From assembly GCA_038727095.1 (NCBI GenBank), contig JAVYWK010000010.1:1-64000 (forward strand): a stretch of DNA of 64,000 nucleotides. The letters run 5' to 3'. The translations under genes and the position numbers were made by a program. The notes below the pieces were generated by a model. That model was not told the origin of the DNA and did not search any database. It saw nothing but the letters and a program-made list of their open reading frames with translations. This DNA comes from Thermofilaceae archaeon. Lineage in GTDB: Archaea; Thermoproteota; Thermoprotei; Thermofilales; Thermofilaceae. Positions 26,097 through 44,847 of the stretch are shown piece by piece (position 1 is the stretch's first letter; every line of letters begins with the position of its first letter).

Positions 26097-26135
26097 AACG
26101 GGAAAAGCTTAAGCAGAGAGCCCCACCCACCCCCT

Positions 26136-26189
26136 AGGTGATGAGTTACCTCGGGCGTGAACCGTGAACGAAGCGGTCCTACACTGACC
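26136..26189 (+). ncRNA. Box C/D 2'-O-methylation guide sRNA
   Basis: C box GTGATGA (26138), 12-nt guide, D' GTGA, C' GTGAACGA, 12-nt guide, D box CTGA (26184); GG/CC terminal pairing; TATA-like AAAAGCTTAAG about 25 nt upstream. Confidence 0.8.
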
Positions 26190-26325
26190 GTTAGTTTCTA
26201 AAAGATCATCTTATAAAATCATAACGCAAATGTTTTGACAGATAAATAAAGTAAATACTAAGGTTAGTACTATGTTATGATGCCTTCATGCAATACTCTT
26301 AAATAGTATTCCACGAGAAAACCTT

Positions 26326-27162
26326 GTGAAAAACGAGAGGTGGGGGACGATTTACACCCCCTACGTGGTAGGCAGGCTAGCAGTAGTGCCGGGAGCTGTT
26401 CCCTTCGTATTCCACATTAGGTTTAAACCGGAAGCGTTAACCGCGGTGGGGGTTTTAGACAAGCTCGTAGACGTGCTGGCGGGAATGGGCGTACCAATTC
26501 TCCTCCTGAAAGTTTCTGCAGCTAGAGCGGGAGAGGCCTTAACGGCTATACTGATAGCAGACTTGAAGGGCAAGGAGAGGATGGCTGAGGATATCGCTCA
26601 AAAAATGAAGCGGGTCCCGTACGTCTCCGATGTTCTGTACGCTCCACCGATCGTGGACGGCGTAGCTATCGATCCCTTCTCCTTCCCCCTATTACTGCAA
26701 GGTGATAGGGCGATCATTTTCTCGCGGCCGATATACGAGGGTTTAGTGAAGGAGGGTTGGCAGAGGTTTGGAACGCCGTACGCTATCCTGCTTTACACCG
26801 TTGGCTACGGGGCAGGCTTCCGCGGGTACGAGAAGCACAGCAAGATCGTCGATAGGCGCCATGCTTGGAAGCTGTTTGAATCCTACCTCTTGGCCGTGGG
26901 CTTCGGGAGGTTCGAGATCGTCAGGCTTGACGACGAGCGGAGGGAGGCGGTTGTAAGGGTTTACAACAGCTTCGAGTGCGAGCTGTTCCGGGGTGCCGGG
27001 GAAATCAGGGGGAATTTCATCAGGGGCTTAATCGCGGGCTGGCTCGCGGGGTACTGGGGGGTTACAGGCGAGTTCGAGGTTGTAGCGAGAGAGATGAGGT
27101 GCATTGCAAAGGGGGACCCGTACTGCGAGTACGTAGCCCGAGTAGAGAGGAAAGCGGTTTAA
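26326..27162 (+). CDS. V4R-domain protein with N-terminal ACT-like domain
   Basis: GFGRFEI, YNSFECE, FIRGLIAG, EMRCIAKGDPYCEY. Confidence 0.85.
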   Translation: MKNERWGTIYTPYVVGRLAVVPGAVPFVFHIRFKPEALTAVGVLDKLVDVLAGMGVPILLLKVSAARAGEALTAILIADLKGKERMAEDIAQKMKRVPYVSDVLYAPPIVDGVAIDPFSFPLLLQGDRAIIFSRPIYEGLVKEGWQRFGTPYAILLYTVGYGAGFRGYEKHSKIVDRRHAWKLFESYLLAVGFGRFEIVRLDDERREAVVRVYNSFECELFRGAGEIRGNFIRGLIAGWLAGYWGVTGEFEVVAREMRCIAKGDPYCEYVARVERKAV

Positions 27163-27167
27163 TCCGA

Positions 27168-29000: not shown

Positions 29001-29145
29001 ACGAGACTCCAGCAAAGGGTTCGGGCCTTTTAAGCCCTTGGGCCTCATCGGACCGACTCGAGCCCCGCTTTTCATCGGGGCCCTTGTCACCGGCTCGGCC
29101 CCGCACAGGGTAACCCCACCCCGCGGCTGAACTGCGGAGAAACCC

Positions 29146-29484
29146 TTGTGGGCTGAGAGGTGGTACGGTTTCCCGCTTGAATCCTTCAAGGAGGTTCTCA
29201 GGTACGCGGGGTTGAGGAGGAAGGGGTGGAGGGGGAGGGGGCTGCTGGAGGAGTACCGCTGCCTTGAGGTGAAAGGGGAGAAGCTGTACATAGGGGCGTG
29301 CGGGCGCATGTTCTTCGCGCTATTGAGGGGCTGCATGGAGGAACTTAAGGTGACCCTAAGGCTGAGCAACATAGCTGAGGCTCTTGAAGCGTTCATGCTA
29401 GCCGGGTTGAGGCCAGGGAGCATTGCGCTCACGCGCGGGGAGGGGCGAGCGGTTTTAGTCCAGCTGAGGGGGGCTACTTCTTGA
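29146..29484 (+). CDS. Hypothetical protein
   Basis: 112-aa ORF filling the gap, host-like codons, no recognisable motif. Confidence 0.5.
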   Translation: MWAERWYGFPLESFKEVLRYAGLRRKGWRGRGLLEEYRCLEVKGEKLYIGACGRMFFALLRGCMEELKVTLRLSNIAEALEAFMLAGLRPGSIALTRGEGRAVLVQLRGATS

Positions 29485-29833
29485 CGCTAGCGGCGATCTT
29501 GTCCGTGTACTTGTCGAGGAGGTAGTAGATGAGGCCCAGGTTCGGCTTTGGCTTGGAGATGAGGCACAGGACGAGCCCGCCGATTTCCCGCATAAGCACC
29601 ACTCTGCTGTCCTTTAGCTCGACTAGGACGTCCCTCACCCCCGTGCTGAAGTACTGCTGGAAAGCCTCACCAACACCGGCTACGACGGCCGCGCCAAGGG
29701 CTGACACGATGTCATCGATGTCCGAGGGGTTGGAGGCCGCCACCAGTACGCCGTCTGGAGTCGCGAGGATCGCTCGCTCCAGCTCGCCGAGGCTCTTCTT
29801 CACCAGCTCCCCCAGCACTAGCTCCACGCTCAT
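29474..29833 (-). CDS. Roadblock/LC7 (MglB-like) protein
   Basis: AILATPDGVLVA, VSALGAA, PNLGLIYY. Confidence 0.88.
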   Translation of the reverse strand: MSVELVLGELVKKSLGELERAILATPDGVLVAASNPSDIDDIVSALGAAVVAGVGEAFQQYFSTGVRDVLVELKDSRVVLMREIGGLVLCLISKPKPNLGLIYYLLDKYTDKIAASVKK

Positions 29834-30180
29834 CGCGCAACCACCCTGTACAACCCCTCCTCCTGGGGCGTCACCTCGATCGTCAGCTCGCCCACCCTAG
29901 CCCTCATCTCGGAGAGCTTGCCCATTTCCTCCAGCACCCGTGCGGCTTGGACTACGTATGCTACCAGCACGCTGTCAGCTGGACCTTGAGCCTCGACGAT
30001 GAGGCCTCTCCAATCCACGAGCGCTGACCACCTTTCTGGCGCCCTCTCTCTTTTATTTTTTGCTCTACTCCTCCTGGCGAGCGCTAGCGCGACCACTACT
30101 CCCACAGCTGCCGCAGCGGCAGCCGCGATGAGCACCGTCAAGAGGTTAAACTCGGGCACCGAGATTCCTCCAACGGACAA
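29830..30180 (-). CDS. Membrane-anchored protein with truncated roadblock-like domain
   Basis: N-terminal TM, basic linker, then SALVDWRGLIVEA hairpin, helix and strands; 4-nt overlap with roadblock gene. Confidence 0.55.
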   Translation of the reverse strand: MSVGGISVPEFNLLTVLIAAAAAAAVGVVVALALARRSRAKNKRERAPERWSALVDWRGLIVEAQGPADSVLVAYVVQAARVLEEMGKLSEMRARVGELTIEVTPQEEGLYRVVAR

Positions 30181-30248
30181 GTTATATACCTAATCTTGGA
30201 AACCACCCGCGCGCAACAATTATAAGTTTTTACGAGATATCCCCGCGG

Positions 30249-30776
30249 TTGGTGTTGGAAACCGAAACCGTGCTCGTTGCAGGAACCTTTGGAGCTGGGA
30301 AAACCACTTTCATACGCACCGTTAGCGGGAAGTTTCTCACTGCTGAGAGGGAGTTGAGCGGGGAAAAGGTGAGCTTCGGTGAGAGGAAGCTGAAGATGAC
30401 GACAACGGTTTTCGCGGACATCGGCGTCGTTGAGCTGGACGGGAGGAAGCTGCTCCTCTACGGGGCGCCCGGCCAGTCGAGGTTCGACTTCACCGTTAGG
30501 GCGCTCGCGTCCCGCTGCCGCCACATAATCCTCCTCATCGACACCTCCGATGAGGCAGCCGTGATGAGGAGCCGCCTCTACTACGAGCGCCTCATCAAGC
30601 CCTACTTCGCCAGGTTCGAGAGGAGGCTGTTAGCCTTGAACAAGCGCGACGTCTCGAGGCTGACCGTTGAAAGGGTGTTCCAGCTCTTCGGCAGGGTGGA
30701 CGAGCCCTACGTTGAAACCGTAGCCACAAACCAGGAGTCCTGCTATAGGGCCTTGCGGGCTCTCTTCAAGGCTTGA
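30249..30776 (+). CDS. Small GTPase, MglA/CvnD-like (ATP_bind_1 type)
   Basis: G1 GTFGAGKTT, TTTVFADIG, G3 variant YGAPGQSRFDF, G4 NKRD. Confidence 0.88.
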   Translation: MVLETETVLVAGTFGAGKTTFIRTVSGKFLTAERELSGEKVSFGERKLKMTTTVFADIGVVELDGRKLLLYGAPGQSRFDFTVRALASRCRHIILLIDTSDEAAVMRSRLYYERLIKPYFARFERRLLALNKRDVSRLTVERVFQLFGRVDEPYVETVATNQESCYRALRALFKA

Positions 30777-31548
30777 CGGCCACGATCGTCGTCAGCAGAT
30801 CCCCCTCCCAGGACCTCACCCTAGCGAAACCCTCCGAAAGCATCGTGTCTTCCAGGCTCTCCCTGCTGACGGGCGCGGGGCCTTTGAGCGCGGCAATGAA
30901 GGGGGCGAGGGGGTTAACGGAGCCTCCGCGCTCGAGGGGGGCGACGAGGAGCAGCTGGCCGCCGGGCTCCAGCGTCGAGAAGGCTCGGCTCACGAGGACG
31001 CGAGGGTTGATCAGCCACGTCGCTGGCGAAGCCGCGATGGCTAGACCGACGGGGTCTCTGACTAGGCGGGCGATGCTCAGCACGTCCCCAACCAGGAGCT
31101 CGTAGTTCGAGGCTCCGATCCCCCTCAAGCGCTCCTCTACGAGCTCCAAGTTCAGCCGTGAGGGGTCAACAGCCACGAGCTTGCCCCACTGCGGGGCTGC
31201 AAGCTCGAGGCAAACCCCCGTGCACGAGTGCACATCGACGGCCGCGCTCCCCGGCCTAGCCTTTACGGCGGCGAGCCCCCGCCTCACCGCCTCCTGGAAC
31301 TCGCCGGAGTACATGAACGCTTCGCTGAAAAGCCTGAACTCGGGGGCGGCGAAGGGCTCCGGGGAATCCCTGATGGACAGAACCCTCTCCGACAGGAAGT
31401 GGAAGACCTTGAGCAGGTACGGGTCGGGCTGCCTCCTCGCCGGCGCAACCATCGATGCTAGGCGCACGACGTCGCCAGCCCAGGGAGCGCCGGAGATCTT
31501 CTGAACCAGCATCCTCAGGGCCTCGATCGCAGCCGCCCTCGCGCTCAA
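30766..31548 (-). CDS. Class I SAM-dependent methyltransferase-like protein
   Basis: AVDVHSCTG (degenerate motif I), LVAVDPS, LVGDV, LEPGGQL. Confidence 0.7.
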   Translation of the reverse strand: MSARAAAIEALRMLVQKISGAPWAGDVVRLASMVAPARRQPDPYLLKVFHFLSERVLSIRDSPEPFAAPEFRLFSEAFMYSGEFQEAVRRGLAAVKARPGSAAVDVHSCTGVCLELAAPQWGKLVAVDPSRLNLELVEERLRGIGASNYELLVGDVLSIARLVRDPVGLAIAASPATWLINPRVLVSRAFSTLEPGGQLLLVAPLERGGSVNPLAPFIAALKGPAPVSRESLEDTMLSEGFARVRSWEGDLLTTIVAVKP

Positions 31549-32336
31549 GATCCCACCTCCTCAAACCCGACGACTCCGCGACGCTCGAGGGAGATGAGCG
31601 CGCTCAACCTCTCCCTCATCGTCAGAGGGTCGGGCCCCACCACCGCGTCGATGAGCCGCCACCCGTTCACGCTCAAAGCGAAGTCGATCATCCTCGAGGA
31701 TAGCCAGGTGATGCGGTTGATGTACGCCCTCAAGAGCTCCGCCGCACCCGGATCCACCTTCACGACCAACCGCCTCGCCTTCATCGCGATCTCGAACATG
31801 CGCGGGGCGAAGGGGCTTGGAGGGTAGGGGATGCTCGCGTCCATCAGCAGGATCGAGAGCAGCAAACCGCTCGGATCGAGCTGCCCCACTCTAGCGACCG
31901 CCGAGAGAAGGCTCTCGCCCCAGGATATCGCCTGGGCAGCCTTCGATAGATCCTTCAACTCCGCCTCAAGAGCCCCTCTGTCCCCCTGCACTCTCAGTAG
32001 GGCCCTCGGGTTCCCAGCGAAGCACTCAACGCTCCAACCCTCGGACAGCACTCGGAACCCGGACAGGTTGCTCATGTAGGATAGGTAGGTGGGAGTCACC
32101 CGGATCACTTCACCCCGCTGAAGCGTCCTGAAGACCCGTACGCCCCTATCCCTCCCCTCGCCGTCCACGTAGACGACGAAGACGTGGTCGCCGTGGTACT
32201 CAGCCACACCGATTAAGCCGGTGGGGCTCGAGGCTGCAGCGACGAGCGCGTCCTCCCCCACCTGTATGGTGCTCTCCCTGCCGCACTGGGGGCAGCTCAG
32301 CTTCAGCAGGCGGACAGCCCTAGCCGCCACGCTCAC
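31545..32336 (-). CDS. Hypothetical protein with N-terminal Zn-ribbon and C-terminal wHTH-like segment
   Basis: CPQC...HGDHVFVVYVDGEGRDRG; C-terminal LSALISLERRGVV. Confidence 0.7.
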   Translation of the reverse strand: MSVAARAVRLLKLSCPQCGRESTIQVGEDALVAAASSPTGLIGVAEYHGDHVFVVYVDGEGRDRGVRVFRTLQRGEVIRVTPTYLSYMSNLSGFRVLSEGWSVECFAGNPRALLRVQGDRGALEAELKDLSKAAQAISWGESLLSAVARVGQLDPSGLLLSILLMDASIPYPPSPFAPRMFEIAMKARRLVVKVDPGAAELLRAYINRITWLSSRMIDFALSVNGWRLIDAVVGPDPLTMRERLSALISLERRGVVGFEEVGS

Positions 32337-32844
32337 ACCTCAAGACCACCCTCAAGAGATCAATAAAGGGTGCCTCAATATTAAACCCATCTTTCGCTGA
32401 AACCTCGTAGTATCCAATGTAGCCCCTGGATCTGGCGTACTGCTCCGCGAAGCTGCGCGGGATCACCCTCATGTCCTCTAGATCCACCTTGTTGCCCACG
32501 AGAACTCGTGGCACGTCGCCGATCGTTGAGACCGTAATCTCCAGCCACTCCTCCAGGTGCTCGAACGTCTCCTCCCTCGTCACGTCGAAGACGAACACCG
32601 CCCCCCTAGCACCCCTCAGAAAGACGGGAGCTAGGAACCGGAAGCGCTCCTCACCCCCCAAATCCCAGATCACGATCCTGACGGGCCCGTCATCGAAATG
32701 GAGCTCCCTCGTGTAGTGCGCGACGCCGACTGTGAGCCGCTGGACGGGGTTGAAGGCTGCCCCCGTAAACCTGTTCGCAATGCTCGTCTTGCCGACCCCT
32801 CCATCTCCGCAGAGAACTATCTTGTAAGCCCTCTGTGGCGCCAC
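32320..32844 (-). CDS. Rab-like small GTPase
   Basis: KIVLCGDGGVGKTS, TVGV, IWDLGGEERF, FLRGA, FVFDVT, GNKVD, EVSAK; GTG 32844 chosen as start. Confidence 0.92.
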   Translation of the reverse strand: MAPQRAYKIVLCGDGGVGKTSIANRFTGAAFNPVQRLTVGVAHYTRELHFDDGPVRIVIWDLGGEERFRFLAPVFLRGARGAVFVFDVTREETFEHLEEWLEITVSTIGDVPRVLVGNKVDLEDMRVIPRSFAEQYARSRGYIGYYEVSAKDGFNIEAPFIDLLRVVLRCERGG

Positions 32845-32861
32845 TAGGGATTCATCGATTC

Positions 32862-33230
32862 TCAGCTTAAAATTTTCCCTATCTTCTGCGACGCCTGCTC
32901 CGCCTGCCACAAAGCGAAACCCAGCTTCGACTCCAGCCTGACGAGCATCACGAGGACGAAATCCCTACTTACGCTCTTGATTATGAGCGTCCCACCCTCA
33001 CTCGTCACAATCAAGTGGCGCATCGCACCACCGCGCAGCTCCTTAATCACCTGCTCCGCAACACCCTGCAGCGTCGCAGCCATCGCCGAAACCTTCAACT
33101 CGTCAGCTTCACTCATCGCCGAGACCACAGGCATACCGTCGCTCGAAACGACGGCCACCGCGTCAAGCGCGGGATTATCCCTCTTCATCTCCTCCAGAAT
33201 CTGGCTCACAGCCTCGTACCTACCCTGCAT
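32862..33230 (-). CDS. Roadblock/LC7 (MglB-like) protein
   Basis: AVAVVSSDGMPV, VSAMAATL, SKLGFAL. Confidence 0.9.
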   Translation of the reverse strand: MQGRYEAVSQILEEMKRDNPALDAVAVVSSDGMPVVSAMSEADELKVSAMAATLQGVAEQVIKELRGGAMRHLIVTSEGGTLIIKSVSRDFVLVMLVRLESKLGFALWQAEQASQKIGKILS

Positions 33231-33776
33231 ACGCGGATATTACAGGGGTATCAAGAAAAACCTTACGTTTACTGGTTTTCAAAGGGTTTCTCTCACGTTG
33301 CTAAACCCTTAGGGATTGCAGGCTTCAGAGCAAAGCAAATAGGGTGTTCCGAATCGGTGAACGGTCGTTAAACGTGACAGAAAGGCAGCATCCCCCAGAG
33401 TGTGAGCCTGAGCACTAACGCTAAAGAAGGCAAGAATTCGAGCGGGCCGGAGCCGACCCCTTCTTAAAAACCTGTCTATTCGAAAACGCTCAGCACACTT
33501 AGAACCCGCTTTAGGTAATAACGCCTCCACCCTTTTCGCCCCATCGACTGGACAGCTAGGATGTTCTGCGCAACCTTTTTAAGGGAATGGCGCATAGATA
33601 TAAACGAACTCTTAAGAGAACTTTTTAGTAAAATTATGAAATCAATGATGACCTGAATCAACCCGTGCAACGCGCTCTGGAGGTAGAAGTAATACATGTA
33701 GGCTTTCGATCCGTGAGACCCTGAGGGGAGAGTGTAGTTCAGCCTCGCAGGAGCCGCTGCTTTCATCTCGAGATTG

Positions 33777-33909
33777 CGATGCGATCAAACCTGATGCTGG
33801 ATTGATCGCATCGACTTAACCTTTTTAGGAATTATTTGTTCAAGTTCTAGGGATCTATAGGAACTACCGGAAAGCAAGCATGAGATTGCATCAAACTTGC
33901 TTTCCGGTA
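33777..33909. promoter_or_regulatory. Two spaced inverted repeats upstream of the pilin operon
   Basis: CGATGCGATCAA-N13-TTGATCGCATCG and TACCGGAAAGCAAG-N17-CTTGCTTTCCGGTA, ahead of TATATTAAT and ATG 33980. Confidence 0.55.
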
Positions 33910-33979
33910 CGAATAGAGCTGAGCCGCAGAAAGAGGTGAGAGTGAATGTATATTAATACCCCTTTATTCATTTCAAACG

Positions 33980-34768
33980 ATGGGGCTGAAAGGGAGGGCC
34001 TTATCGCCGGTTGTGGCGACTGTGATATTGACGAGCATCATGCTCACAACAGTCGCCGTAGCGGTGTACTTCTCTACCTCGTTGATCGATGCGCACAGGC
34101 AGAGGATGGAGTACGAGAGCGCTAAGGAGCTCCTCAGTTACGCTGCAACAGCTTTCGAGCAGGTGGCTTTAGGTACCGGAGGCGCCAGGTACGTCCGCTT
34201 CAGCCTCGCTAGCACAGGCTTAAACTTTGAGCAGACCCCCTACACGCTGGAAGTGACACTTGGAGAGGGTAAGCAGATCAGCCTTCAGCTCCGTAGAGTG
34301 AGCATCTGCGCTGCCCCCCTCGTTACAACCGTGGATAGAGTGATCTACCCGGAGGGTGGCTTCCTCAGCGAGCTGAATAAGCTGATCGTGGGCGCTGGAG
34401 AACCTATAGCGCTCGTATACGAGAGCTTCAGCGGTCGTGCGTGCGCGTTCTTAGAGCCTCGAAGAGTACGTGCGATCTACAGCGGGGTAACCTATGTGAT
34501 CGAGGACGGCCAGAAGAAGCTCTACAACTACTACACGATACACGCGGTGGAAGTCACGTTCGGAAGGGTGGGAGGGGCGGGAACGATACCCTTGATCTTC
34601 AGGAACAAGGGTGTTACAGTTCTCGAGTACAGGTTCAATACACCCTCGGTAACCATTTCGGCGAGCCTAAACGGCATCAAATCCGAGAGGAAGCTAACTG
34701 GGAGTCAAGAAGCGAGCGGCTCAATCGTAATCGTAAAGATCTCTCGCGTTGAAGTGGCGACAGGGTGA
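33980..34768 (+). CDS. Type IV pilin-like protein (class III signal peptide)
   Basis: MGLKGRA|LSPVVATVIL, then hydrophobic helix. Confidence 0.85.
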   Translation: MGLKGRALSPVVATVILTSIMLTTVAVAVYFSTSLIDAHRQRMEYESAKELLSYAATAFEQVALGTGGARYVRFSLASTGLNFEQTPYTLEVTLGEGKQISLQLRRVSICAAPLVTTVDRVIYPEGGFLSELNKLIVGAGEPIALVYESFSGRACAFLEPRRVRAIYSGVTYVIEDGQKKLYNYYTIHAVEVTFGRVGGAGTIPLIFRNKGVTVLEYRFNTPSVTISASLNGIKSERKLTGSQEASGSIVIVKISRVEVATG

Positions 34769-34772
34769 TAGA

Positions 34773-37052
34773 ATGCCCGAGCCAGTGGTCGTCCACATCA
34801 TAGCGACTACCGCGTTGCTAGGCGCTGTACTGCTCATCGTCGCCTCCGTCGCAATCGCCCAATACATCACCTACGTTCAGACCCTCAATACGATGCTGGC
34901 CGAGGCTGCGGAGAGCTGCGCTAAGCAGATCGTAGAGCTGGTATCCGTTCACACGCTAGGCGGCGAAGAACTCACATACATGCTTCTCACTCTGCCGCAG
35001 TCGCTCGGTGGTCAACCCTACAACCTCACGCTCGAGAACATAGGGGAGAACGTGATAGCTGTAAGAGCGCAGCTTCAGCTTCACCGTCAGGTAAGGATTG
35101 TCGTCACCCCCAACTTCGGGCAAGCGCCTGTCTATGCGGTGAGAGAGGCGACGAGGTTCGGTGATCTCGTGCTACTGCCGACGATCCTCCTTCCGACGCC
35201 CTACGGATGGGAAGCAGCCCTAGTAGCCGTGAGAAGCAACGACGCGCTCCTGATAGGTTTCACAACTCAGCCCCCAAACGTTCACTACGCCGTATCACCC
35301 CCCAGATTCCTGATTGTCAACTGGACCACAAGGCTCGAGGGTCTCATAGGCTCCGAGAAAACCTTCTCGTTTGTCATCTTTAACAGCGGGAGCAAGGGTA
35401 AGGCAACAGTAACCATAGACGATGGCGAAAAGCCCCTCATCGAGCCGATCGTCATGATGGTGGGCAGCAGAGCGGCTGCGCAAGGTACGGTGAAACTGGC
35501 CCTCCCCCTTACGCGAGGGTCGTACACTTGGTTCATCCGCGTCAAGCATGACGACGTTCTGCACGATGCTAGAAGCTTCACGGTTGTTTCCTTGGCCCCC
35601 CAGATCGTAATCAAAAGGTATGATGCATCAATCAGCACTCCACTGGGCTCGCCCCTCCGGGTAAGCTTGACGATCGAAAACGCCGGAGACTACGATGGAA
35701 CGGCAGTTATCAAGCTGAACTCCAACCAGACCGGTGAGGTTCCGCTTCAACCTCAGCAGAGCCTTGATCTCGTCTACGAGGTCAGGCCACCGAACCAGCT
35801 GGGCAAACACGTATGGGTTCTCGCAGTGGAAACCCTCGAGACAGGCTACGTCGAGGAGAGGCAAATCACGGTGAATGTCGTGGACCCTGATTCCCCCTAC
35901 ATCAGCTGGGTAAATGGAACAATCGAAGGCCTCGTCAACTGGAATGCACGCATTCACGTATGCATTTCCAACCCCGGTTCAACCAATAGGGAAGTTCAAC
36001 TGTTGCTAAACGGTAGCAGGGTAGGAAGTCTTGAAATCCCAGCCGGGGAAGAGGTATGTACGAGCTTCACAAAGAGCCTACCATCGGAGAAAGGTATCTA
36101 CTGGTGGAGTCTATCGCTAGCCAGCCTCGATGCGAATTTTGACGAAAGGACGATCAAGCTGATCGTTAAGGATTTGACGGGTTCCCCTGTTAGAGGTGCA
36201 ATATTTTACGATACCTTCTCCTCCCCATCGAGTGATTGGAAAGCAGTAGGAGGTACACTCAGGATTACAGGAGGCAAGCTGGATTGTGAGGATCAGGATA
36301 AAGCGTTTTGCGGCTCTATCGAAAGGAGTAGTCAAACTAAGTGCGCTACGGTTTGTTGCTGGAACAGAAGCTTATCGGGCTATAACCGTATCTCTGCAGT
36401 TGTACAGATACAGGTTAAGGGCGGCGACAAAAATGTCGAGAATGGCGTAGCCTTTGCGACCTGCCAGTTTAACCACCTTTATGGAGTGACACTATTCATG
36501 GGGAAAAGTAGGGGGTCGGGTGTACCGGCGGTTTTACGCGTCACAAGGTACGATGGTAGCTGGAGCTTGATAGACTGGACCTCAGAGTTTAATTTAGCCC
36601 CCAACGTCTACTATACGCTTTTCGTTGACATCTCCTTCTCTGGAGGATACTGGGTTCTTACCTACCAAATCTACGATGAGAATGGCAACCCCATAAGCAA
36701 TACCATGGTTAAGACTCTTGATCAGAATTGGAAGGATTGGCCATGCGGCTTTGGCCTGTTCGTCGACGACGATAAGAACGGGATTTTTGATAATGTTGTT
36801 CTAGCGATCAATGACCCGCGATACATAGTTGTGAAGGGTTTGCCACCCAGGTGGAGGGTGGAGCTATATAGTGGCAATAGACTCATAGCCAGCGGACTCT
36901 CTGATGGCGCCATGGACGTCAAGCTCTCAGTCGTAACAGTGCCGATTGTAGAGAGTGCACGTATCGTAGTTAAGGATCCCGACGGGGCGCTGTACAGGGA
37001 ATATTCCTTTGGAGTCCTGGTGGGAGGTGATACTCTCGTCTTCTCACCATAA
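34773..37052 (+). CDS. Large pilus-associated adhesin-like protein (N-terminal TM, CARDB/Ig-like repeats, Cys-rich lectin-like domain)
   Basis: Three repeats xxNxG...LP...GxYxW; FYDTFS...W beta-sandwich; lies in pilin operon. Confidence 0.7.
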   Translation: MPEPVVVHIIATTALLGAVLLIVASVAIAQYITYVQTLNTMLAEAAESCAKQIVELVSVHTLGGEELTYMLLTLPQSLGGQPYNLTLENIGENVIAVRAQLQLHRQVRIVVTPNFGQAPVYAVREATRFGDLVLLPTILLPTPYGWEAALVAVRSNDALLIGFTTQPPNVHYAVSPPRFLIVNWTTRLEGLIGSEKTFSFVIFNSGSKGKATVTIDDGEKPLIEPIVMMVGSRAAAQGTVKLALPLTRGSYTWFIRVKHDDVLHDARSFTVVSLAPQIVIKRYDASISTPLGSPLRVSLTIENAGDYDGTAVIKLNSNQTGEVPLQPQQSLDLVYEVRPPNQLGKHVWVLAVETLETGYVEERQITVNVVDPDSPYISWVNGTIEGLVNWNARIHVCISNPGSTNREVQLLLNGSRVGSLEIPAGEEVCTSFTKSLPSEKGIYWWSLSLASLDANFDERTIKLIVKDLTGSPVRGAIFYDTFSSPSSDWKAVGGTLRITGGKLDCEDQDKAFCGSIERSSQTKCATVCCWNRSLSGYNRISAVVQIQVKGGDKNVENGVAFATCQFNHLYGVTLFMGKSRGSGVPAVLRVTRYDGSWSLIDWTSEFNLAPNVYYTLFVDISFSGGYWVLTYQIYDENGNPISNTMVKTLDQNWKDWPCGFGLFVDDDKNGIFDNVVLAINDPRYIVVKGLPPRWRVELYSGNRLIASGLSDGAMDVKLSVVTVPIVESARIVVKDPDGALYREYSFGVLVGGDTLVFSP

Positions 37053-37090
37053 ATTTTTAAAGTAGAGCCGCTCTTCCTTCAATTGTAGAT

Positions 37091-38353
37091 ATGCACGCTG
37101 CTCTCGAGTACCTGGCCGTAGGGTTGTTGCTTGTGATCGTGATTCTAGCCGCAGGGCAGATGATCGAGGCTCCAGCGAGAACTGTGGAAACGGTGAAAGC
37201 AGAGCAGCTTTATACCGTGGCGGAGAGGTTAATCGATAAGATCCTGCTGACTCCCGGCTACCCGGAGAACTGGGGAGCAGACCTCCTCTTGGACCATGAA
37301 GTGATGGACTTCGGTCTCGCTCTTGCAGGTGCTAAAACGCCTTACATCGTGGATCCCGACAAGGTGATGCGGTTAGCGAACCTCACGACGTATCCGAATC
37401 CAGTGCCGATTAGCGCTGAAAGGATAGCCGAGCTTTTAGGCATTAAAGGTGAGTACGGATTCAGGCTGGAGATGAAGCCCATGATTAGAATTAGAGTCGA
37501 GGCGCTAGACGTTAACGACGGACTCCCCTCGACGTTTATCGTTAACGTAGTAAATTGGCAAGGTATCGCTCTGCCCAACGCTCGTGTAACTGGGATCTAC
37601 GTTATCGTGTACGTCCCCGTTGGAGTTGGAGCGGGCCAAGAAAACAAACAGGATAGGGCTGAAAGCGAGAATCCCCTCGTAGAAAGTTGTCTAACGGACT
37701 CCCTCGGTACCTGTACACTCCGTTTTACTATCCCAGTTTTAAAGCCTAAGGGGGGTATGTCTCCTGTACCCTTCATAGTTTTACACGTCAACTGGGAAGG
37801 CTTCGTCTGCATTTCCGGTTATTCACCAACGCCCAGAGCTTCAGGTGATAGTCCGGTTAACGCTTACATCGTTGGGAACACCATAATTGTTGAGGGAATC
37901 GATGAAATAAGGGGGGTTTTCAAAGTTGACGATGAAGTTGTGCAGGTGGTCCCCCAATACGGGATTCTGATAGAGGATACCGATGTTGAATGGTGTAGAG
38001 CACAACCAGGAGGTCGCGTAGAACCAGAAGACAATATCTGGTGCCACAGGGTGGCCGGTAGAATCCTCCCCGCAAGGCGTAAAGAAGGCGTGGACTACTT
38101 GCTAGGGCGAGTTTACAGCTTAGAACGCCTATCCAGCCATATTATAGTCACGGGAGTCTGGACGAAAGGTGAGCCCGCTTCAGAAAAGGGGGTTGCCATT
38201 GTGATCTCAAGGATACCGGAGGTTGACATAAGCTGGGGGGCCGAAAACGCTCAACCAGCTAACGCGGTAACGATAACTCGGATAGCCCAGATATACAACT
38301 ACCCCTACATCGTCCGCTTGACGATTTGGCGATTAGTGGAGGGCTGGCCGTGA
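37091..38353 (+). CDS. Minor pilin-like membrane-anchored protein
   Basis: MHAALEYL plus hydrophobic helix; TPGYPENWG, DFGLA, DPDKV. Confidence 0.7.
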   Translation: MHAALEYLAVGLLLVIVILAAGQMIEAPARTVETVKAEQLYTVAERLIDKILLTPGYPENWGADLLLDHEVMDFGLALAGAKTPYIVDPDKVMRLANLTTYPNPVPISAERIAELLGIKGEYGFRLEMKPMIRIRVEALDVNDGLPSTFIVNVVNWQGIALPNARVTGIYVIVYVPVGVGAGQENKQDRAESENPLVESCLTDSLGTCTLRFTIPVLKPKGGMSPVPFIVLHVNWEGFVCISGYSPTPRASGDSPVNAYIVGNTIIVEGIDEIRGVFKVDDEVVQVVPQYGILIEDTDVEWCRAQPGGRVEPEDNIWCHRVAGRILPARRKEGVDYLLGRVYSLERLSSHIIVTGVWTKGEPASEKGVAIVISRIPEVDISWGAENAQPANAVTITRIAQIYNYPYIVRLTIWRLVEGWP

Positions 38354-38844
38354 TGAATCGGGGGAGAAGGGGTCAGTTTAGGATTATAGAGTTGGTAATA
38401 GCCGTCACGATGGTTGTCGCAGTGATGCTTCTGGTGATGTTCTTCACACGCCCAATGAGGAGCGTTTATCTGAGGGAAGTAGCGGATCTCCGGAGTCTTG
38501 CCTACAACCTACTCAACAACTTCGCTGACGCCGGTGTCTTTGAACGGGTTTTGAACAGCACCCAAAACGGCGAAAAAGGCTGGGAGGGAAGGCTGAGGAT
38601 GCTCGTCAGTTCAAGCTTGCCTCCGGGCCTCGTCTTCAGGATGGAGATCTACGATGTTAAAATCAACAAGGATGGAACCATTGAGCTGAAACGGATTGAC
38701 GAGGGTGCCATTACGAACATGGAGCGTGACGCGGAGCTGGTTGAAGCAGAGTCTGTTCAGTACACACTTGTCTGCACGCGCGATCCCGATAGTGTGAGAG
38801 GGAGGATCCTGTACATCGTTCTAGTGATCGGGTATGCAGGTTAG
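38353..38844 (+). CDS. Minor pilin (class III signal peptide)
   Basis: MNRGRRG|QFRIIE plus hydrophobic helix; coupled to upstream stop. Confidence 0.8.
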   Translation: MNRGRRGQFRIIELVIAVTMVVAVMLLVMFFTRPMRSVYLREVADLRSLAYNLLNNFADAGVFERVLNSTQNGEKGWEGRLRMLVSSSLPPGLVFRMEIYDVKINKDGTIELKRIDEGAITNMERDAELVEAESVQYTLVCTRDPDSVRGRILYIVLVIGYAG

Positions 38845-39715
38845 ACGCTCCGCTCAAATGCTAGTTGCAGCCGTCCTCGTGATGGGCCTCTTTGTTATGA
38901 GCTTTCTCGTTGCCGCCTATCAAACGCACGCTCTTTTTCTGAGGACTAGGAGCGTCGTTGTTAGGGAAATTGCGGGCGCTATCACCGCAGATTTTAACAG
39001 GGCGCTAGCCGCGATGCTCGCGCTCGCGACCAGATCCTACTACGATCATTACCGTTTCACCGACTTCACTTCGAATTTTGAGGAATACGGGCTCCAGCCT
39101 CGCGACCTCAATTCGGCAAAAGATGTTGCTTACCTCTACCTGAATGCGTGGGCAAACGTTCAGAGAACTGTCTACGCGGAGTACGGCGTGCAGATCTCTT
39201 GGCACCTTTGCGCATCACCTCTCCCGCGGAACCCAAGGGTCTACGTTTACGACCTCTTCCTCATCTACTGGAACAAGACGCACGACAATAAGCCGTACGC
39301 AGCATCGTACGCTTGTGCACAACTGCAGCTCAACATCACGAACGTAGGCTTTTACCATTGGACGACCAACTCCCTCATCGGTTTGGTTCTTATCATCGAT
39401 GAAGTTAACGAAAGGAGCAATTCCATCGTGTTCACTGTGCTAGTCGATAACGGTACTTACTACGGGCTGCTGCTAGCGAAGGGGTGGGTTGAGGTCTACC
39501 TTTATAGAAACGGTAGATGGGAGGCAGCGAGCATCAAGGACGTGACGTACGAGGGACTGGGCCGCTACAACGTCACGCTAGATGAAAGTAAGGGTTCAAG
39601 CATCAAGGGCAGTAGCAGAGTACTAGTTGTAGTATCCGATGAGCGTGGAATCCTTGTTGTAACACAACAGGAAACTGCAACATCCGACGAAGAGCAACGT
39701 GGAAGAAGGCCTTGA
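38834..39715 (+). CDS. Minor pilin (class III-like signal peptide)
   Basis: MQVRRSA|QMLVAAVLV. Confidence 0.72.
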   Translation: MQVRRSAQMLVAAVLVMGLFVMSFLVAAYQTHALFLRTRSVVVREIAGAITADFNRALAAMLALATRSYYDHYRFTDFTSNFEEYGLQPRDLNSAKDVAYLYLNAWANVQRTVYAEYGVQISWHLCASPLPRNPRVYVYDLFLIYWNKTHDNKPYAASYACAQLQLNITNVGFYHWTTNSLIGLVLIIDEVNERSNSIVFTVLVDNGTYYGLLLAKGWVEVYLYRNGRWEAASIKDVTYEGLGRYNVTLDESKGSSIKGSSRVLVVVSDERGILVVTQQETATSDEEQRGRRP

Positions 39716-39720
39716 TAAAG

Positions 39721-41532: not shown

Positions 41533-41616
41533 GCTTGCAAAATCACTCGGGTTTATTTAACCATCGCGCAGCGACATGAATTTAATAGGGTTTCCCGCAA
41601 GAGAAGCGGGTCGGCT

Positions 41617-43587: not shown

Positions 43588-43624
43588 CAAAAGAAATAAA
43601 AAACCCCCATACTCCCGTAATACT

Positions 43625-44131: not shown

Positions 44132-44175
44132 GTTTTTTTATATCTACATTTATTTTTTACTATTTTTATAATTCA
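44132..44175 (+). terminator. Oligo-T terminator region after the pilin
   Basis: GTTTTTTTA and further T runs immediately after the stop. Confidence 0.55.
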
Positions 44176-44324
44176 ATTTCATAATATAGTATTAACATGT
44201 GAGGTAGTTATTTTCACTTTTATACCTATTTTCACAGTACACGCGTACCGTTTTTGGATTGCATAGATTGTTTCGTTGTGCTTATTAGGTTATATGGTCA
44301 ACGATAGCTCTGTAAGCGTTATGT

Positions 44325-44840: not shown

Positions 44841-44847
44841 TCTTCGA

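What the first reader, a model, noticed from the sequence alone, without database searches (positions are those of the whole stretch)
29474..33230. Two-GTPase, multi-roadblock signalling cluster back-to-back with a type IV pilus locus
Seen: operon roadblock-Rab-like GTPase-Zn-ribbon protein-methyltransferase-like protein (overlapping or nearly abutting genes), converging on a CvnD/MglA-like GTPase that is divergent from TM-roadblock-like plus roadblock. The first operon shares a 750-bp divergent region with the pilin operon. Established: Myxococcus MglA/MglB set type IV pilus polarity; roadblock/longin domains are GTPase platforms in eukaryotes (Ragulator); Rab-like GTPases are rare in non-Asgard archaea, though to my recollection one has been noted in Thermofilum. 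Inference: an archaeal GTPase polarity switch controlling pilus placement or adhesion.
Basis: partly seen in the sequence, partly recalled or inferred. Interest (0 to 1): 0.85.

Follow-up and report, generated by a model that had tools for sequence, protein, structure and literature searches.

The report
Two small-GTPase modules beside archaeal pilus genes
A hot-spring archaeon of the Thermofilaceae carries two small molecular-switch (GTPase) gene modules next to a type IV pilus locus; one of them sits beside the same kind of pilus locus in several related families, which suggests that it regulates the pilus.

Summary
All seven genes exist as described. They are a roadblock gene, a Ras/Rab-like GTPase, a Zn-binding protein, a methyltransferase-fold protein, a convergent MglA/CvnD-type GTPase, a small membrane protein and a second roadblock gene. 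A 749-bp divergent region separates them from a type IV pilus (T4P) locus with five pilin-like genes, TadC and PilB.

Comparative genomics splits the cluster into two modules.
- **Module A:** membrane protein, roadblock(s) and the MglA-type GTPase. It lies within 10 kb of a TadC gene in 8 of 41 genomes of the order (5 genera, 4 families). A fifth family has PilB-like and pilin-like neighbours. Flanking genes are otherwise not conserved. Module A is unlinked from T4P genes in the Thermofilum-like genus and in a neighbouring family of the class.
- **Module B:** the Rab-like GTPase (no catalytic Gln), a CPxC…HxxH protein with no PDB fold match, and the methyltransferase-fold protein. This trio was found in the window and in 15 of the 20 related loci fetched. 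It usually has no roadblock or pilus neighbour.

Stranded metatranscriptome reads fit the gene orientations.

Polarity control and GAP/GEF roles remain untested. I rate this a new variant of a known kind, partly anticipated in print.

The parts
26326..27162 (+). V4R-domain protein, a recurrent neighbour of the GTPase/roadblock genes
   Evidence: Pfam V4R scores 25.6 bits, below the cut-off of 31. Homologues in L054 and L046 pass with V4R plus DUF5943. Homologues lie next to the GTPase/roadblock genes in 6 loci of 3 families.
29474..29833 (-). Roadblock/LC7 protein RblA (MglB-like), module A
   Evidence: Robl_LC7 scores 29 bits against a cut-off of 23. It falls in the RblA-type clade of 23 rows, support 94/84. 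Stranded RNA reads fit the minus strand.
29830..30180 (-). 116-aa single-pass membrane protein (TM116), module A
   Evidence: There is no Pfam family above cut-off. It is conserved in g1 and g6 (A5). hhalign to the C-terminal domain of the 216-278-aa membrane proteins that hold this position in other families gives probability 32%, E 4.8e-4. Those larger proteins against roadblock give 79.7%, E 1.5e-5. The direct comparison with roadblock gives 0.2%.
30249..30776 (+). MglA/CvnD-type small GTPase (GTP2), module A
   Evidence: G1 is GAGKTT, G2 is TT, G3 is YGAPGQ without Asp, and G4 is NKRD. This matches the 'GTPGQ' plus Thr signature of MglA Groups 2-5 (PMC4316618, passages). A profile hits T. 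thermophilus MglA 3t12 over its full length at 37.6 bits. Streptomyces loci match at 36-43% identity over residues 8-99 to 8-174.
30766..31548 (-). Class I methyltransferase-fold protein with a degenerate SAM motif, module B
   Evidence: The AF2 model has pLDDT 96.1. Foldseek finds SAM methyltransferases at E down to 6.6e-11, with 1544 matches at E<=0.001. Pfam scores are below the cut-offs. Only E76, G197 and P204 are invariant, and there is no conserved GxGxG.
31545..32336 (-). 263-aa Zn-binding-type protein (Znr), conserved partner of the Rab-like gene, module B
   Evidence: C15, P16, C18, H48, H51, D58, G61, R64 and G65 are invariant. The AF2 model has pLDDT 88.9. Foldseek finds no PDB match at E<=0.001. 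Only 19 representative clusters match among 1.84 billion proteins.
32320..32844 (-). Ras/Rab-like GTPase lacking the catalytic Gln, module B (the ORF extends to 32910; likely start is the GTG at 32844)
   Evidence: Ras PF00071 scores 143 bits. The best PDB matches are Rab2B at 124 bits and Thorarchaeota Rab 7ezb at 121.8 bits. G3 is WDLGGE in the window and in every Znr-linked homologue aligned (WDIGGE and NDLGGE in one each). The start codon is read.
32862..33230 (-). Roadblock/LC7 protein RblB
   Evidence: Robl_LC7 scores 47.6 bits. It is adjacent to the Rab-like gene only in g1 and g6. It groups with the second roadblocks of MglA-type operons, though the deep split is weak at 68/65.
33231..33979 (.). 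749-bp divergent intergenic region
   Evidence: The sequence was read. It holds two hairpins, 33777-33813 and 33865-33909. There is no Rfam family. Depth in RNA-library contigs is about zero in bin 33404-34020. The region is absent at this place in G003 and G001.
33980..34768 (+). Pilin-like protein pil262
   Evidence: The N-terminus is KGRALSPVVATVIL followed by a hydrophobic stretch. Homologues follow TadC in f2 and f4. There is no Pfam hit.
34749..37052 (+). Large pilin-like protein pil767
   Evidence: It has a hydrophobic N-terminus. Its N-terminal part has 151-173-aa homologues in the f2 and f4 pilus loci.
37091..38353 (+). Pilin-like protein pil420
   Evidence: It has a hydrophobic N-terminus. 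Homologues occur in the f2 and f4 pilus loci.
38326..38844 (+). Pilin-like protein pil172
   Evidence: The N-terminus is RRGQFRIIELVIAV, which looks like a class III signal peptide by eye. Homologues occur in f2 and f4.
38834..39715 (+). Pilin-like protein pil293
   Evidence: It has a hydrophobic N-terminus. Homologues occur in all 4 families compared.
39721..41532 (-). TadC/PilC-like membrane platform protein
   Evidence: T2SSF PF00482 scores 91.3 bits over two stretches. Homologues beside module A are about 50% identical in f2 and f4 and 31% in f6.
41617..43587 (+). PilB-like secretion ATPase with a C-terminal wHTH-like tail
   Evidence: T2SSE PF00437 scores 119 bits. There are weak TrmB/PadR/MarR hits at residues 587-654. 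Homologues beside module A are 46-75% identical.

Best explanation
The region holds two separable small-GTPase switch modules that have come together beside a type IV pilus (T4P) locus.

**Module A.** This comprises the single-pass membrane protein TM116, roadblock RblA, the MglA/CvnD-type GTPase GTP2 and, ancestrally, the second roadblock RblB. I read it as an MglA/MglB-type switch. By homology the roadblock proteins form the dimeric regulator (GAP and/or GEF) of the GTPase. The membrane protein tethers the switch to the membrane. The output is the neighbouring PilB/TadC pilus machinery: its assembly, activity or position.

**Module B.** This comprises the Rab-like GTPase without a catalytic Gln, the CPxC...HxxH protein Znr and the methyltransferase-fold protein. 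It is a distinct three-gene unit found in two families of the order. Because the GTPase lacks the Gln, hydrolysis probably needs a residue supplied in trans. Znr and the MT-fold protein are the candidate regulator or effector. In this genus, in g6 and in family f6, module B is joined to module A. That may couple the two switches.

**Shown:** gene content, motifs, folds, conservation of the neighbourhoods, and strand-consistent transcription.

**Inferred:** every protein-protein interaction, the GAP/GEF roles, membrane tethering and the pilus as output.
For: **Module identity**
- GTP2 has the MglA Groups 2-5 signature.
- Roadblock genes accompany it in most of the archaeal loci annotated and in 67 of 80 mostly bacterial relatives' loci.

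**Link to T4P**
- Crossing the GTP2-like places with the T2SSF places in 41 genomes gives 8 genomes with both within 10 kb: G000, G001, G003, G025, G030, G032, G034 and G039. These cover genera g1, g10, g12, g18 and g19 in families f1, f2, f4 and f6.
- In G035 (f8) a pilin-like gene, Znr-MT and a PilB-like fragment flank the GTPase (weak Arch_flagellin hit). In G038 (f8) Znr-MT and a small ORF with a hydrophobic N-terminus flank it.
- In g6 the distance is 14-16 kb.
- Gene order differs between families. In f2 the module diverges from PilB across about 120 nt. In G025 one strand carries TadC, pilins, TM216, roadblock and GTPase, with a 102-nt largest gap at the junction. In f6 the module converges on the pilin genes.
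- In a cluster analysis of 5 genomes from 4 families, only roadblock, small GTPase, TadC, PilB and pil293 are shared by all 4 families. 42 clusters are confined to one family. General synteny therefore does not explain the proximity.
- My arithmetic: three T2SSF loci in a 1.86-Mb genome give a random gene about a 3% chance of lying within 10 kb.
- Makarova et al. 2016 note in one sentence that roadblock proteins (arCOG02603) are often encoded in archaeal T4P loci (PMC4858521, passage).

**Module B**
- Rab-like, Znr and MT-fold genes are adjacent in the window and in 15 of the 20 loci fetched. These cover genera g1, g2, g3, g4, g6, g7 and g11.
- Znr-MT sits beside the MglA-type GTPase and a PilB-like gene in f8.

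**Transcription**
- 74 stranded reads of RNA run X4 lie in the orientation expected for RblA/TM116, MT/Znr, the pilins, TadC and PilB.
Against: **Where the link is missing**
- In the Thermofilum-like genus g7 (G010, G015, G017, G018, G019) the module A genes are 180-353 kb from the nearest T2SSF gene of the window's ~600-aa type. In G020 they are 60 kb from a shorter T2SSF gene. The orthologous PilB is also far away.
- My HMMs found no pilus genes in the flanks of 6 further f1 loci (L058-L061, L063, L064) or of the f3 locus L062.
- In family f14 of the same class, 0 of 5 genomes have the GTPase within 10 kb of a T2SSF gene. The nearest is about 30 kb.

**Limits of the comparison**
- The genomes are kin, so the 4-5 families are not independent events.
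- An unrelated XPD helicase gene also recurs near these GTPase genes (g1, g6, L064, L066, L040). Some ancestral synteny therefore persists without any obvious functional tie.
- The f6 pilus locus is divergent (TadC 31%, PilB 46%) and may be a different T4P system.
- The 'Rab-like' gene of f6 is only 39% identical and keeps its Gln.

**Limits of the evidence**
- No reads in the orientation expected for GTP2 were seen among the 74 reads.
- No biochemical or localisation data exist.
Confidence: 0.5

Rival explanations
1. Both modules are general-purpose signalling switches, conservon-like, whose output is not the pilus. It could be, for example, cell-envelope, division or metabolic regulation. 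On this reading their position beside T4P genes is inherited gene order that has not yet been broken up in some lineages.
For: - Module A is unlinked from T4P genes in g7 (6 genomes), in 6 other f1 loci, in f3 and in 5 of 5 f14 genomes.
- Module B has an aminotransferase gene upstream in g7.
- XPD, which is functionally unrelated, also recurs nearby.
- Actinobacterial CvnD-type GTPases, to which GTP2 is 36-43% identical, are described as part of a histidine-kinase system and not of pili (PMC4316618, passage).
Against: - Proximity persists through at least four different gene orders in 4-5 families, while all other flanking genes turn over.
- In G025 the module continues a pilin gene string on one strand. 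In f2 it shares a ~120-nt divergent region with PilB.
- No histidine kinase or CvnC-like gene is in the window cluster.
Confidence: 0.3
2. The Rab-like GTPase with its upstream roadblock (RblB as GAP platform) is the switch that controls the pilus, through the shared divergent region with the pilin operon. The MglA-type GTPase is then secondary.
For: - In the window RblB, Rab-like, Znr and MT form a tight co-directional string facing the pilin genes across 749 bp.
- G001 and G003 have the same string directly beside TadC.
- In f8 Znr-MT lies directly downstream of a PilB-like gene.
- In f6 a Ras-like GTPase gene abuts the pilin genes.
Against: - RblB is next to the Rab-like gene only in g1 and g6. 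No Robl_LC7 match lies near it in 4 of 4 g7 genomes searched, the nearest being 25 kb away in G015.
- In the tree RblB groups with the second roadblocks of MglA-type operons.
- The Rab-like/Znr/MT trio has no pilus neighbours in the g2, g3, g4, g7 or g11 loci annotated.
- In 2014, 0 of 121 Rup-type GTPases were found coupled to MglB (PMC4316618, Table 1 passage).
Confidence: 0.1
3. The cluster is a sensory pathway acting on gene expression. The V4R protein senses a small molecule, the roadblock/GTPase switch relays the signal, and the output is transcription of the pilin and other genes, possibly through the wHTH-like tail of PilB or an unidentified regulator. On this reading the pilus motor and pilus placement are not the target.
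For: - V4R genes recur beside the roadblock/GTPase genes in 6 loci of 3 families.
- V4R/TRAPPC3-like proteins are discussed as ligand binders (PMC10933270, passage).
- There are two hairpin/palindromic sites upstream of the first pilin gene.
- PilB has weak TrmB/PadR/MarR-like hits at its C-terminus.
Against: - The V4R Pfam score in the window is below cut-off.
- V4R was not found next to the module in g6, g7 or f2.
- No DNA-binding protein is encoded inside the cluster.
- The wHTH hits are all below their cut-offs.
Confidence: 0.1

Closest known systems
MglA-MglB polarity switch of Myxococcus xanthus and Thermus thermophilus
   Same: - It pairs a small Ras-superfamily GTPase that lacks the G3 Asp with roadblock-fold regulator genes.
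- In Myxococcus it is functionally linked with type IV pili (abstracts in the listing).
- The GTP2 profile matches T. thermophilus MglA 3t12 over its full length.
   Different: - GTP2 has the Groups 2-5 signature (G[A/T]PGQ, with Thr in place of the intrinsic Arg finger), not the Group 1 TVPGQ of Myxococcus MglA.
- Two or three different roadblock genes and a membrane protein accompany it.
- The genes lie beside the pilus genes themselves.
- RomR/RomX were not looked for.
- No function has been shown.
Actinobacterial conservon CvnA-CvnD
   Same: - It has a Groups 2-5 MglA-type GTPase (CvnD), a roadblock protein (CvnB) and a membrane component.
- Streptomyces loci match GTP2 at 36-43% identity.
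   Different: - Pfam and NCBIfam find no histidine kinase and no CvnC-type protein in the window cluster.
- The membrane protein here has 116 aa, or 216-278 aa in other families, with a roadblock-like tail.
Rab-like GTPases of Thermofilum and of Asgard archaea (Surkont and Pereira-Leal 2016; Thorarchaeota Rab, PDB 7EZB)
   Same: - The window protein is 53-54% identical to proteins named Rab family GTPase of Thermofilum pendens and Thermofilum sp..
- It scores 121.8 bits against 7ezb.
- Its nearest relatives outside the order are Promethearchaeota proteins at 40-45% identity. This fits the paper's statement that the Thermofilum proteins cluster with two Lokiarchaeal ones.
   Different: - The catalytic Gln is replaced by Gly (DLGGE) in the whole Znr-linked group.
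- It sits in a conserved three-gene unit. In contrast, MK-D1 GTPase genes are said not to lie generally in operons with regulators (PMC10933270, passage), and no conserved neighbours were reported for archaeal Group 2 Rup genes (PMC4316618, passage).
Archaeal type IV pilus loci with roadblock genes (Makarova, Koonin and Albers 2016)
   Same: [quoted passage not shown]
   Different: - In the passages I saw, that paper does not mention an MglA-type or Rab-like GTPase, the membrane protein, Znr or the MT-fold protein. Its only 'GTPase' mention is FtsZ.
Rag GTPase-Ragulator and TRAPP (eukaryotic roadblock/longin/TRAPPC3 platforms for small GTPases)
   Same: Roadblock-fold proteins, a V4R protein (V4R is proposed as the ancestor of TRAPPC3/Bet3; PMC2253512, passages) and a Rab-like GTPase are encoded close together.
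   Different: - The Rab-like protein is a single G domain without the C-terminal roadblock domain of Rag GTPases.
- No longin domain was detected.
- No interaction has been shown.
- The resemblance is one of parts, not of a demonstrated complex.

Membership tests
Ras superfamily, Rab-like (Rup) small GTPase: protein 32320-32844(-) | Pfam Ras family above the gathering score; G1 GxxxxGK[ST], G4 NKxD, G5 SAK | tested here: met
   PF00071 scores 143 bits against a cut-off of 21.6. GDGGVGKTS, GNKVD and SAK are present and the core residues are invariant over 24 sequences.
Ras superfamily, Rab-like (Rup) small GTPase: protein 32320-32844(-) | G3 DxxGQ with the catalytic Gln | tested here: not met
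   G3 is WDLGGE, with Gly in place of Gln, in the window and in every Znr-linked homologue aligned (WDIGGE and NDLGGE in one each). Paralogues with an N-terminal extension keep the Gln, as WDTAGQ or WDHAGQ.
Ras superfamily, Rab-like (Rup) small GTPase: protein 32320-32844(-) | Rab-specific RabF/RabSF motifs and C-terminal prenylatable Cys | not tested
   RabF/RabSF motifs were not scored. A Cys five residues from the end occurs only in genus g1. The best PDB hits by sequence are Rabs.
MglA family, Groups 2-5 (CvnD-like): protein 30249-30776(+) | G3 without Asp, 'GTPGQ'-type; Thr instead of the intrinsic Arg next to the G2 Thr | tested here: met
   Y71, G72, P74, G75 and Q76 are invariant, giving YG[A/T]PGQ. 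T52 and T53 are conserved. The signature is as described in PMC4316618 (passages).
MglA family, Groups 2-5 (CvnD-like): protein 30249-30776(+) | Coupled to an MglB/roadblock gene | tested here: met
   RblA lies 416 nt away, across the divergently transcribed TM116 gene. Roadblock genes are directly adjacent in g7, f2, f4 and f6. 67 of 80 relatives' loci hold a roadblock gene.
MglA family, Groups 2-5 (CvnD-like): protein 30249-30776(+) | Sequence similarity to solved MglA proteins | tested here: inconclusive
   The single sequence gives no MglA hit at E<=0.01. The profile gives 3t12 MglA at 37.6 bits over the full length, but Sec4 at 48 bits (partial) and Arl8 at 40 bits score as high or higher.
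Roadblock/LC7 (MglB-like): 29474-29833(-) and 32862-33230(-) | Pfam Robl_LC7 above the gathering score | tested here: met
   The scores are 29 and 47.6 bits against a cut-off of 23. They are the only two matches in the 1.86-Mb assembly.
Roadblock/LC7 (MglB-like): 29474-29833(-) and 32862-33230(-) | GAP and/or GEF activity on the cognate GTPase | not testable with these tools
   This needs a biochemical assay.
Roadblock-like domain in the membrane protein 29830-30180(-) | Detectable profile similarity to roadblock | tested here: inconclusive
   A5 against roadblock A7 gives probability 0.2%. A5 against the larger membrane proteins A6 gives 32%, E 4.8e-4. A6 against A7 gives 79.7%, E 1.5e-5.
Class I SAM-dependent methyltransferase: 30766-31548(-) | Rossmann-like methyltransferase fold | tested here: met
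   AF2 pLDDT is 96.1. Foldseek PDB hits to SAM methyltransferases reach E 6.6e-11 and below 1e-8 for dozens of entries.
Class I SAM-dependent methyltransferase: 30766-31548(-) | Conserved SAM-binding motif I (GxGxG) and Pfam score above cut-off | tested here: not met
   The motif region reads HSCTG in the window, xGPG in some relatives, and is lost in g7. Only E76, G197 and P204 are invariant. The Pfam scores of 21.0 and 21.6 bits are below the cut-offs of 21.2 and 27.
Zinc ribbon: 31545-32336(-) | Four conserved metal ligands on two beta-hairpin knuckles | tested here: inconclusive
   CPxC (C15, C18) lies between strands 9-14 and 21-26. HxxH (H48, H51) lies between strands 41-47 and 51-58. 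All four residues are invariant. The ligand set is C2H2 where a classical ribbon has four Cys. Metal binding was not testable, and there was no Pfam or PDB fold match.
Archaeal type IV pilus locus: 33980-43587 | PilB-type ATPase, TadC/PilC-type membrane protein, and pilins with class III signal peptides | tested here: met
   T2SSE scores 119 bits and T2SSF 91 bits. Five ORFs have a charged stretch followed by a hydrophobic N-terminus, judged by eye only, with no Pfam hit. A prepilin peptidase was not searched for.
Conservon (CvnA-D) | Membrane histidine kinase CvnA and CvnC encoded with the roadblock and GTPase genes | tested here: not met
   No kinase or CvnC-type family appears among the seven proteins in Pfam or NCBIfam.
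Rag GTPase/Ragulator | GTPase with a C-terminal roadblock domain that dimerises on a roadblock platform | tested here: not met
   The Rab-like protein is a 174-aa single G domain.

The most novel reading that the evidence does not exclude
An order of non-Asgard (Thermoproteota) archaea uses a membrane-tethered, two-GTPase relay to control a type IV pilus machine. The relay would combine an MglA-type switch with two or three roadblock subunits, and a Gln-less Rab-like switch served by a new Zn-binding fold and a pseudo-methyltransferase. A V4R (TRAPPC3-ancestor) protein would supply the input. That would be a prokaryotic assembly built from the same parts as eukaryotic Ragulator/TRAPP platforms: roadblock, V4R/TRAPPC3 and a Rab-like GTPase. 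Its partners can be read directly from operons, and it acts on a surface filament, not on vesicles.
Probability: 0.15. Interest if true: 0.85.

Novelty: new variant of a known kind. Interest (0 to 1): 0.6.

Why it matters
How archaea place and regulate their many type IV pili is largely unknown. The only well-studied small-GTPase/roadblock switch acting on pili is bacterial (MglA/MglB).

This locus and its relatives give a concrete, testable candidate for an archaeal counterpart. The partner assignments come from gene order: which roadblocks, which membrane protein and which ATPase.

The locus also gives the Rab-like GTPase of Thermofilaceae two conserved, uncharacterised partners, one of them with no match among solved folds. 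For Asgard GTPases such partner matching is said to be hard because the genes are not in operons (PMC10933270, passage). A tractable pairing outside Asgard could therefore help work out how Rab-type switches were regulated before eukaryotes.

Tried and rejected
- **Complex prediction.** Complex prediction of the Rab-like GTPase (residues 23-196, with GTP and Mg) against Znr gave no verdict (score 0.00, mark 0.32). It is no evidence either way.
- **Fold searches.** Foldseek of the Znr model against the PDB found nothing at E<=0.001. The pdb_via_wide and pdb_via libraries were not on the machine, so a fold missed by Foldseek could not be sought.
- **ESM Atlas for Znr.** The best scores were 0.84, to Promethearchaeota hypothetical proteins, which is a lead only.
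- **The search for related loci.** With the Znr alignment A1 it failed for lack of a conserved stretch. With the GTP2 alignment A4 the genome-contig scan returned mostly bacterial MglA-family loci, so it did not extend the archaeal pilus survey.
- **Rfam** on 26000-46000 found no family.
- **Missing genes.** A 354-aa no-Pfam protein follows the trio in g7. I did not find it in this genome with that one query.
- **Canonical methyltransferase.** A 324-332-aa methyltransferase lies beside RblB in g6 and inside the f6 cluster. This genome has only 30%-identical paralogues on other contigs.
- **Deep split of the roadblock tree.** Support is weak (68/65), so I use it as a lean and not as proof.
- **HMM overlap.** My iterated HMMs for GTP2 and Rab-like converged on the same ORFs (59 each). 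Labels between these two are therefore not discriminating. I relied on BLAST identities and G3 motifs instead.
- **RNA runs.** X2 and X3 gave no reads, with about 3% of each run read. This is no test.
- **Rejected idea.** I considered that the pilus adjacency is unique to this genome. It is not.
- **Closed sources.** They may already list GTPase genes in T4P loci or neighbours of the Thermofilum Rup gene.
- **Unverified recollection.** I recall an older report of V4R with roadblock and GTPase genes in archaeal operons. The searches did not confirm it.

Full report
**What is there.** The window is the first 64 kb of contig 10 of a 1.86-Mb, 92%-complete assembly. Names attached to close homologues place it in the Thermofilaceae: 'Thermofilaceae archaeon' and, further off, 'Thermofilum pendens' and 'Infirmifilum'.

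- On the minus strand lie roadblock RblB (Robl_LC7, 47.6 bits), a Ras/Rab-like GTPase (PF00071, 143 bits), a 263-aa protein without any Pfam or NCBIfam family (Znr) and a 260-aa methyltransferase-like protein just under the Pfam cut-offs.
- Converging on these is a 175-aa P-loop GTPase on the plus strand (GTP2).
- Diverging from GTP2 are a 116-aa protein with one N-terminal hydrophobic helix (TM116) and a second roadblock gene (RblA, 29 bits).
- A 749-bp region separates RblB from five co-directional genes with pilin-like N-termini. These are followed by a TadC-like gene (T2SSF, 91 bits) and a PilB-like ATPase gene (T2SSE, 119 bits).

The Rab-like gene probably starts at the GTG at 32844, 17 nt after the RblB stop, because the homologues have 174 aa.

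**What the proteins are.**

- *Rab-like GTPase.* Its best matches among solved structures are eukaryotic Rabs (Rab2B, 124 bits) and a Thorarchaeota Rab (7ezb, 121.8 bits). Public records name its Thermofilum homologues 'Rab family GTPase'. Surkont and Pereira-Leal listed one Rab-like protein each in Thermofilum pendens and Thermofilum sp. (PMC4915359, passages). G1, G4 and G5 are canonical, but G3 reads WDLGGE. The catalytic Gln is replaced by Gly in the window and in every homologue that has Znr next to it.
- *GTP2.* It carries the signature that Wuichet and Søgaard-Andersen give for MglA Groups 2-5, which include the actinobacterial CvnD: a G3 without Asp (here YG[A/T]PGQ) and a Thr where Group 1 has the intrinsic Arg. 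A profile of it reaches T. thermophilus MglA over the full length (37.6 bits). Streptomyces loci match at 36-43% identity.
- *Znr.* It has invariant CPxC and HxxH pairs placed on two hairpins of a confident model (pLDDT 88.9). No PDB fold matches at E<=0.001. Only 19 related clusters turn up among 1.84 billion representative proteins.
- *Methyltransferase-like protein.* It has a very confident class I methyltransferase fold (pLDDT 96.1; Foldseek E down to 6.6e-11). There is no conserved SAM motif I, and only three columns are invariant. I call it a methyltransferase-fold, possibly non-catalytic, protein.
- *TM116.* It aligns weakly (32%, E 4.8e-4) with the C-terminal domain of the 216-278-aa single-pass membrane proteins that occupy its position in other families. 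Those proteins align with roadblock at 79.7% probability. The 'TM-roadblock-like' label is therefore plausible but not established.

**Two modules, not one.** I mapped the genes in 40 related genomes of the order and fetched flanks.

- *Module B.* The Rab-like, Znr and MT-fold genes are adjacent, in that order, in the window and in 15 of the 20 loci fetched around Rab-like hits. These cover genera g1, g2, g3, g4, g6 and g7 of family f1 and g11 of f3. The 5 loci without Znr are paralogues or belong to families f5 and f8. In the Thermofilum-like genus g7 (7 loci) the trio lies between an aminotransferase gene and a 354-aa gene without Pfam hits. No roadblock match lies near it in the 4 g7 genomes searched.
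- *Module A.* GTP2-like genes travel with one to three roadblock genes and a single-pass membrane protein. In g2, g3, g4, g7 and g9 the order is membrane protein, roadblock, GTPase and then usually a second roadblock. In g7 this sits 150 kb or more from the Rab-like trio.
- *RblB.* In a tree of 47 roadblock proteins, the window's RblA falls in a clade of first roadblocks (94/84). RblB falls among the second roadblocks of these operons, although the deepest split is weak (68/65). RblB is therefore probably an old member of the MglA-type module. Its place upstream of the Rab-like gene is seen only in g1 and g6 and is likely secondary.

**The pilus link.** I crossed all GTP2-like places with all T2SSF places in the 41 genomes.

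- *Within 10 kb on the same contig:* 8 genomes. G000 is at 9.2 kb, G001 and G003 at about 3 kb, G025 at 6.9 kb, G030 and G039 at 3.9 kb, G032 at 5.4 kb and G034 at 7.7 kb. These cover 5 genera in families f1, f2, f4 and f6.
- *Family f8:* in G035 the GTPase is flanked by a pilin-like gene, by Znr-MT and by a PilB-like fragment at the contig end. In G038 it is flanked by Znr-MT and a small ORF with a hydrophobic N-terminus.
- *Genus g6:* the orthologous PilB/TadC lies 14-16 kb away, on the other side of an XPD gene.

In f2 and f4 the adjacent pilus loci share the window's pilin set and have TadC at about 50% and PilB at 53-75% identity, so they are the same kind of locus. The f6 locus is more divergent.

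The arrangement differs each time. It diverges from PilB across about 120 nt in f2. It continues a TadC-pilin string on one strand in G025. It converges on the pilin genes in f6. It faces the pilin genes or abuts TadC in g1.

A cluster analysis of 18-34 kb around the loci in 5 genomes of 4 families found only roadblock, small GTPase, TadC, PilB and one pilin family shared by all four families. Four more pilin families, V4R and a 136-aa unknown protein are shared by three. 42 clusters are confined to one family. General conservation of gene order therefore does not explain the proximity.

A random gene would have roughly a 3% chance of lying within 10 kb of one of the three T2SSF loci of this genome. 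This is my arithmetic, and it is not a formal test because the genomes are kin.

The literature holds one sentence that anticipates this. [quoted passage not shown] The GTPase is not mentioned in the passages I saw, and the supplementary table could not be opened. Searches for archaeal MglB/roadblock with pili found nothing further.

**Against the link.**

- In g7 (G010, G015, G017, G018, G019) the module lies 180-353 kb from the nearest T2SSF gene of the window's ~600-aa type. In G020 it lies 60 kb from a shorter T2SSF gene.
- Six more f1 loci and one f3 locus show no pilus genes in their flanks with my HMMs.
- In a neighbouring family of the class, 0 of 5 genomes have the two within 10 kb.
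- An XPD helicase gene also recurs near these GTPase genes in several genera, so part of the pattern may be inherited order.

**Expression.** One metatranscriptome held as contigs covers 29 of 30 bins of 26000-44500, with about zero depth over the divergent intergenic bin. A second run, read raw, gave 74 reads (61 at 95-99% likeness, so from a related strain). Their first-mate strands switch exactly with gene orientation: RblA/TM116 and MT/Znr, then the pilins, then TadC, then PilB. No reads in the orientation expected for GTP2 were among them.

**How it most likely works.** By homology with MglA/MglB, the MglA-type GTPase is switched by a roadblock dimer (RblA with RblB) and held at the membrane by the single-pass protein. 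The recurrent neighbourhood suggests that its GTP form acts on the PilB/TadC machine. The Rab-like GTPase lacks its own catalytic Gln, so hydrolysis probably needs a residue supplied in trans. Znr (invariant R64 and D58) and the MT-fold protein are the only conserved candidates. All of these steps are inferences. I put the functional tie of module A to the pilus at about 0.5.

**Comparison and novelty.** The parts are known kinds: MglA/CvnD-type GTPases with roadblock partners, the Thermofilum Rab-like GTPase, and archaeal T4P loci that sometimes hold roadblock genes. The new points, as far as my searches show, are these:

- The MglA-type GTPase plus a membrane protein is a recurrent companion of one T4P locus type across several families of this order.
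- The Rab-like GTPase has a conserved operon with a Zn-binding protein that has no PDB fold match and a degenerate methyltransferase-fold protein.
- The two GTPase modules are joined in some lineages.
- A V4R protein recurs in the neighbourhood, and V4R is the proposed ancestor of TRAPPC3 (PMC2253512, passages).

In 2014, 0 of 121 Rup-type GTPases were found coupled to MglB, and no conserved neighbours were reported for the archaeal Group 2 (PMC4316618, passages).

I rate it a new variant of a known kind, with interest 0.6.

Noticed in passing
window 29016-29472: RNA-library contigs (X1) and raw reads (X4) of related strains join 29015 to 29473 with 36-37 other letters in between, so those strains lack this 457-bp stretch. 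The 754-aa XPD ORF (27168-29432) is about 130 aa longer at its N-terminus than its homologues (613-623 aa), so the extension is probably not real.
   Followed up: partly
window 33777-33813 and 33865-33909: Two inverted repeats (15-nt arms at 93% and 19-nt arms at 89%, each with a 7-nt loop) lie 70-200 nt upstream of the first pilin-like gene. They could be operator sites or hairpins.
   Followed up: no
window 33980-39715: The five-gene pilin block has lower G+C (0.50-0.55 against about 0.62). It is absent at this position in two genomes of the same genus (G001, G003), where RblB lies 170-480 bp from TadC. It looks like a variable pilin cassette.
   Followed up: partly
window 41617-43587, residues 587-654 of the protein: The PilB-like ATPase has a C-terminal tail with weak, sub-threshold winged-helix hits (TrmB, PadR, MarR, HxlR). 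In G025 the PilB homologue is 1140 aa and matches the query twice.
   Followed up: no
window 22435-22845 (+); L054:14830-15240; L052:16424-16837: A 136-aa protein without any Pfam family is conserved in the neighbourhood of the GTPase/pilus genes in 3 families. In L054 it lies directly upstream of a roadblock gene.
   Followed up: partly
L032:5427-6128, L039:9782-10480, L040:4168-4908: Paralogous Rab-like GTPases in families f5 and f3 keep the catalytic Gln (WDTAGQ or WDHAGQ) and carry an N-terminal extension of about 60 aa. They have no Znr neighbour.
   Followed up: no
L029:10766-11740; L046:5982-6980: A canonical SAM methyltransferase (324-332 aa; Methyltransf_11 54.6 bits in L046; the two are 38% identical) lies directly upstream of RblB in g6 and inside the f6 GTPase cluster. 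The window's genome has only 30%-identical paralogues on other contigs.
   Followed up: partly
L102, L105, L114, L129: In 4 of 80 mostly bacterial loci found with the GTP2 alignment, all Actinomycetota, a T2SSE-like ATPase gene lies within a few kb of the MglA-family GTPase gene, directly downstream of it in three of them. This is a possible bacterial parallel to the archaeal link.
   Followed up: no
window 6000-16000: A low-G+C stretch (0.43-0.49 against about 0.62) encodes a 1480-aa fusion of an M28 peptidase with a MacB/FtsX-type permease, a DUF6785/DUF6784 protein and a thioredoxin-DsbD-like protein. It may be an acquired island.
   Followed up: partly
L042:4474-5679 and L022:10388-11581 (g7 genomes): In the Thermofilum-like genus, both the MglA-type operon and the Rab-like trio have a class I/II aminotransferase gene as a direct neighbour. 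The two genes are paralogues of about 400 aa, which hints at an old duplication or a split of one ancestral locus.
   Followed up: no
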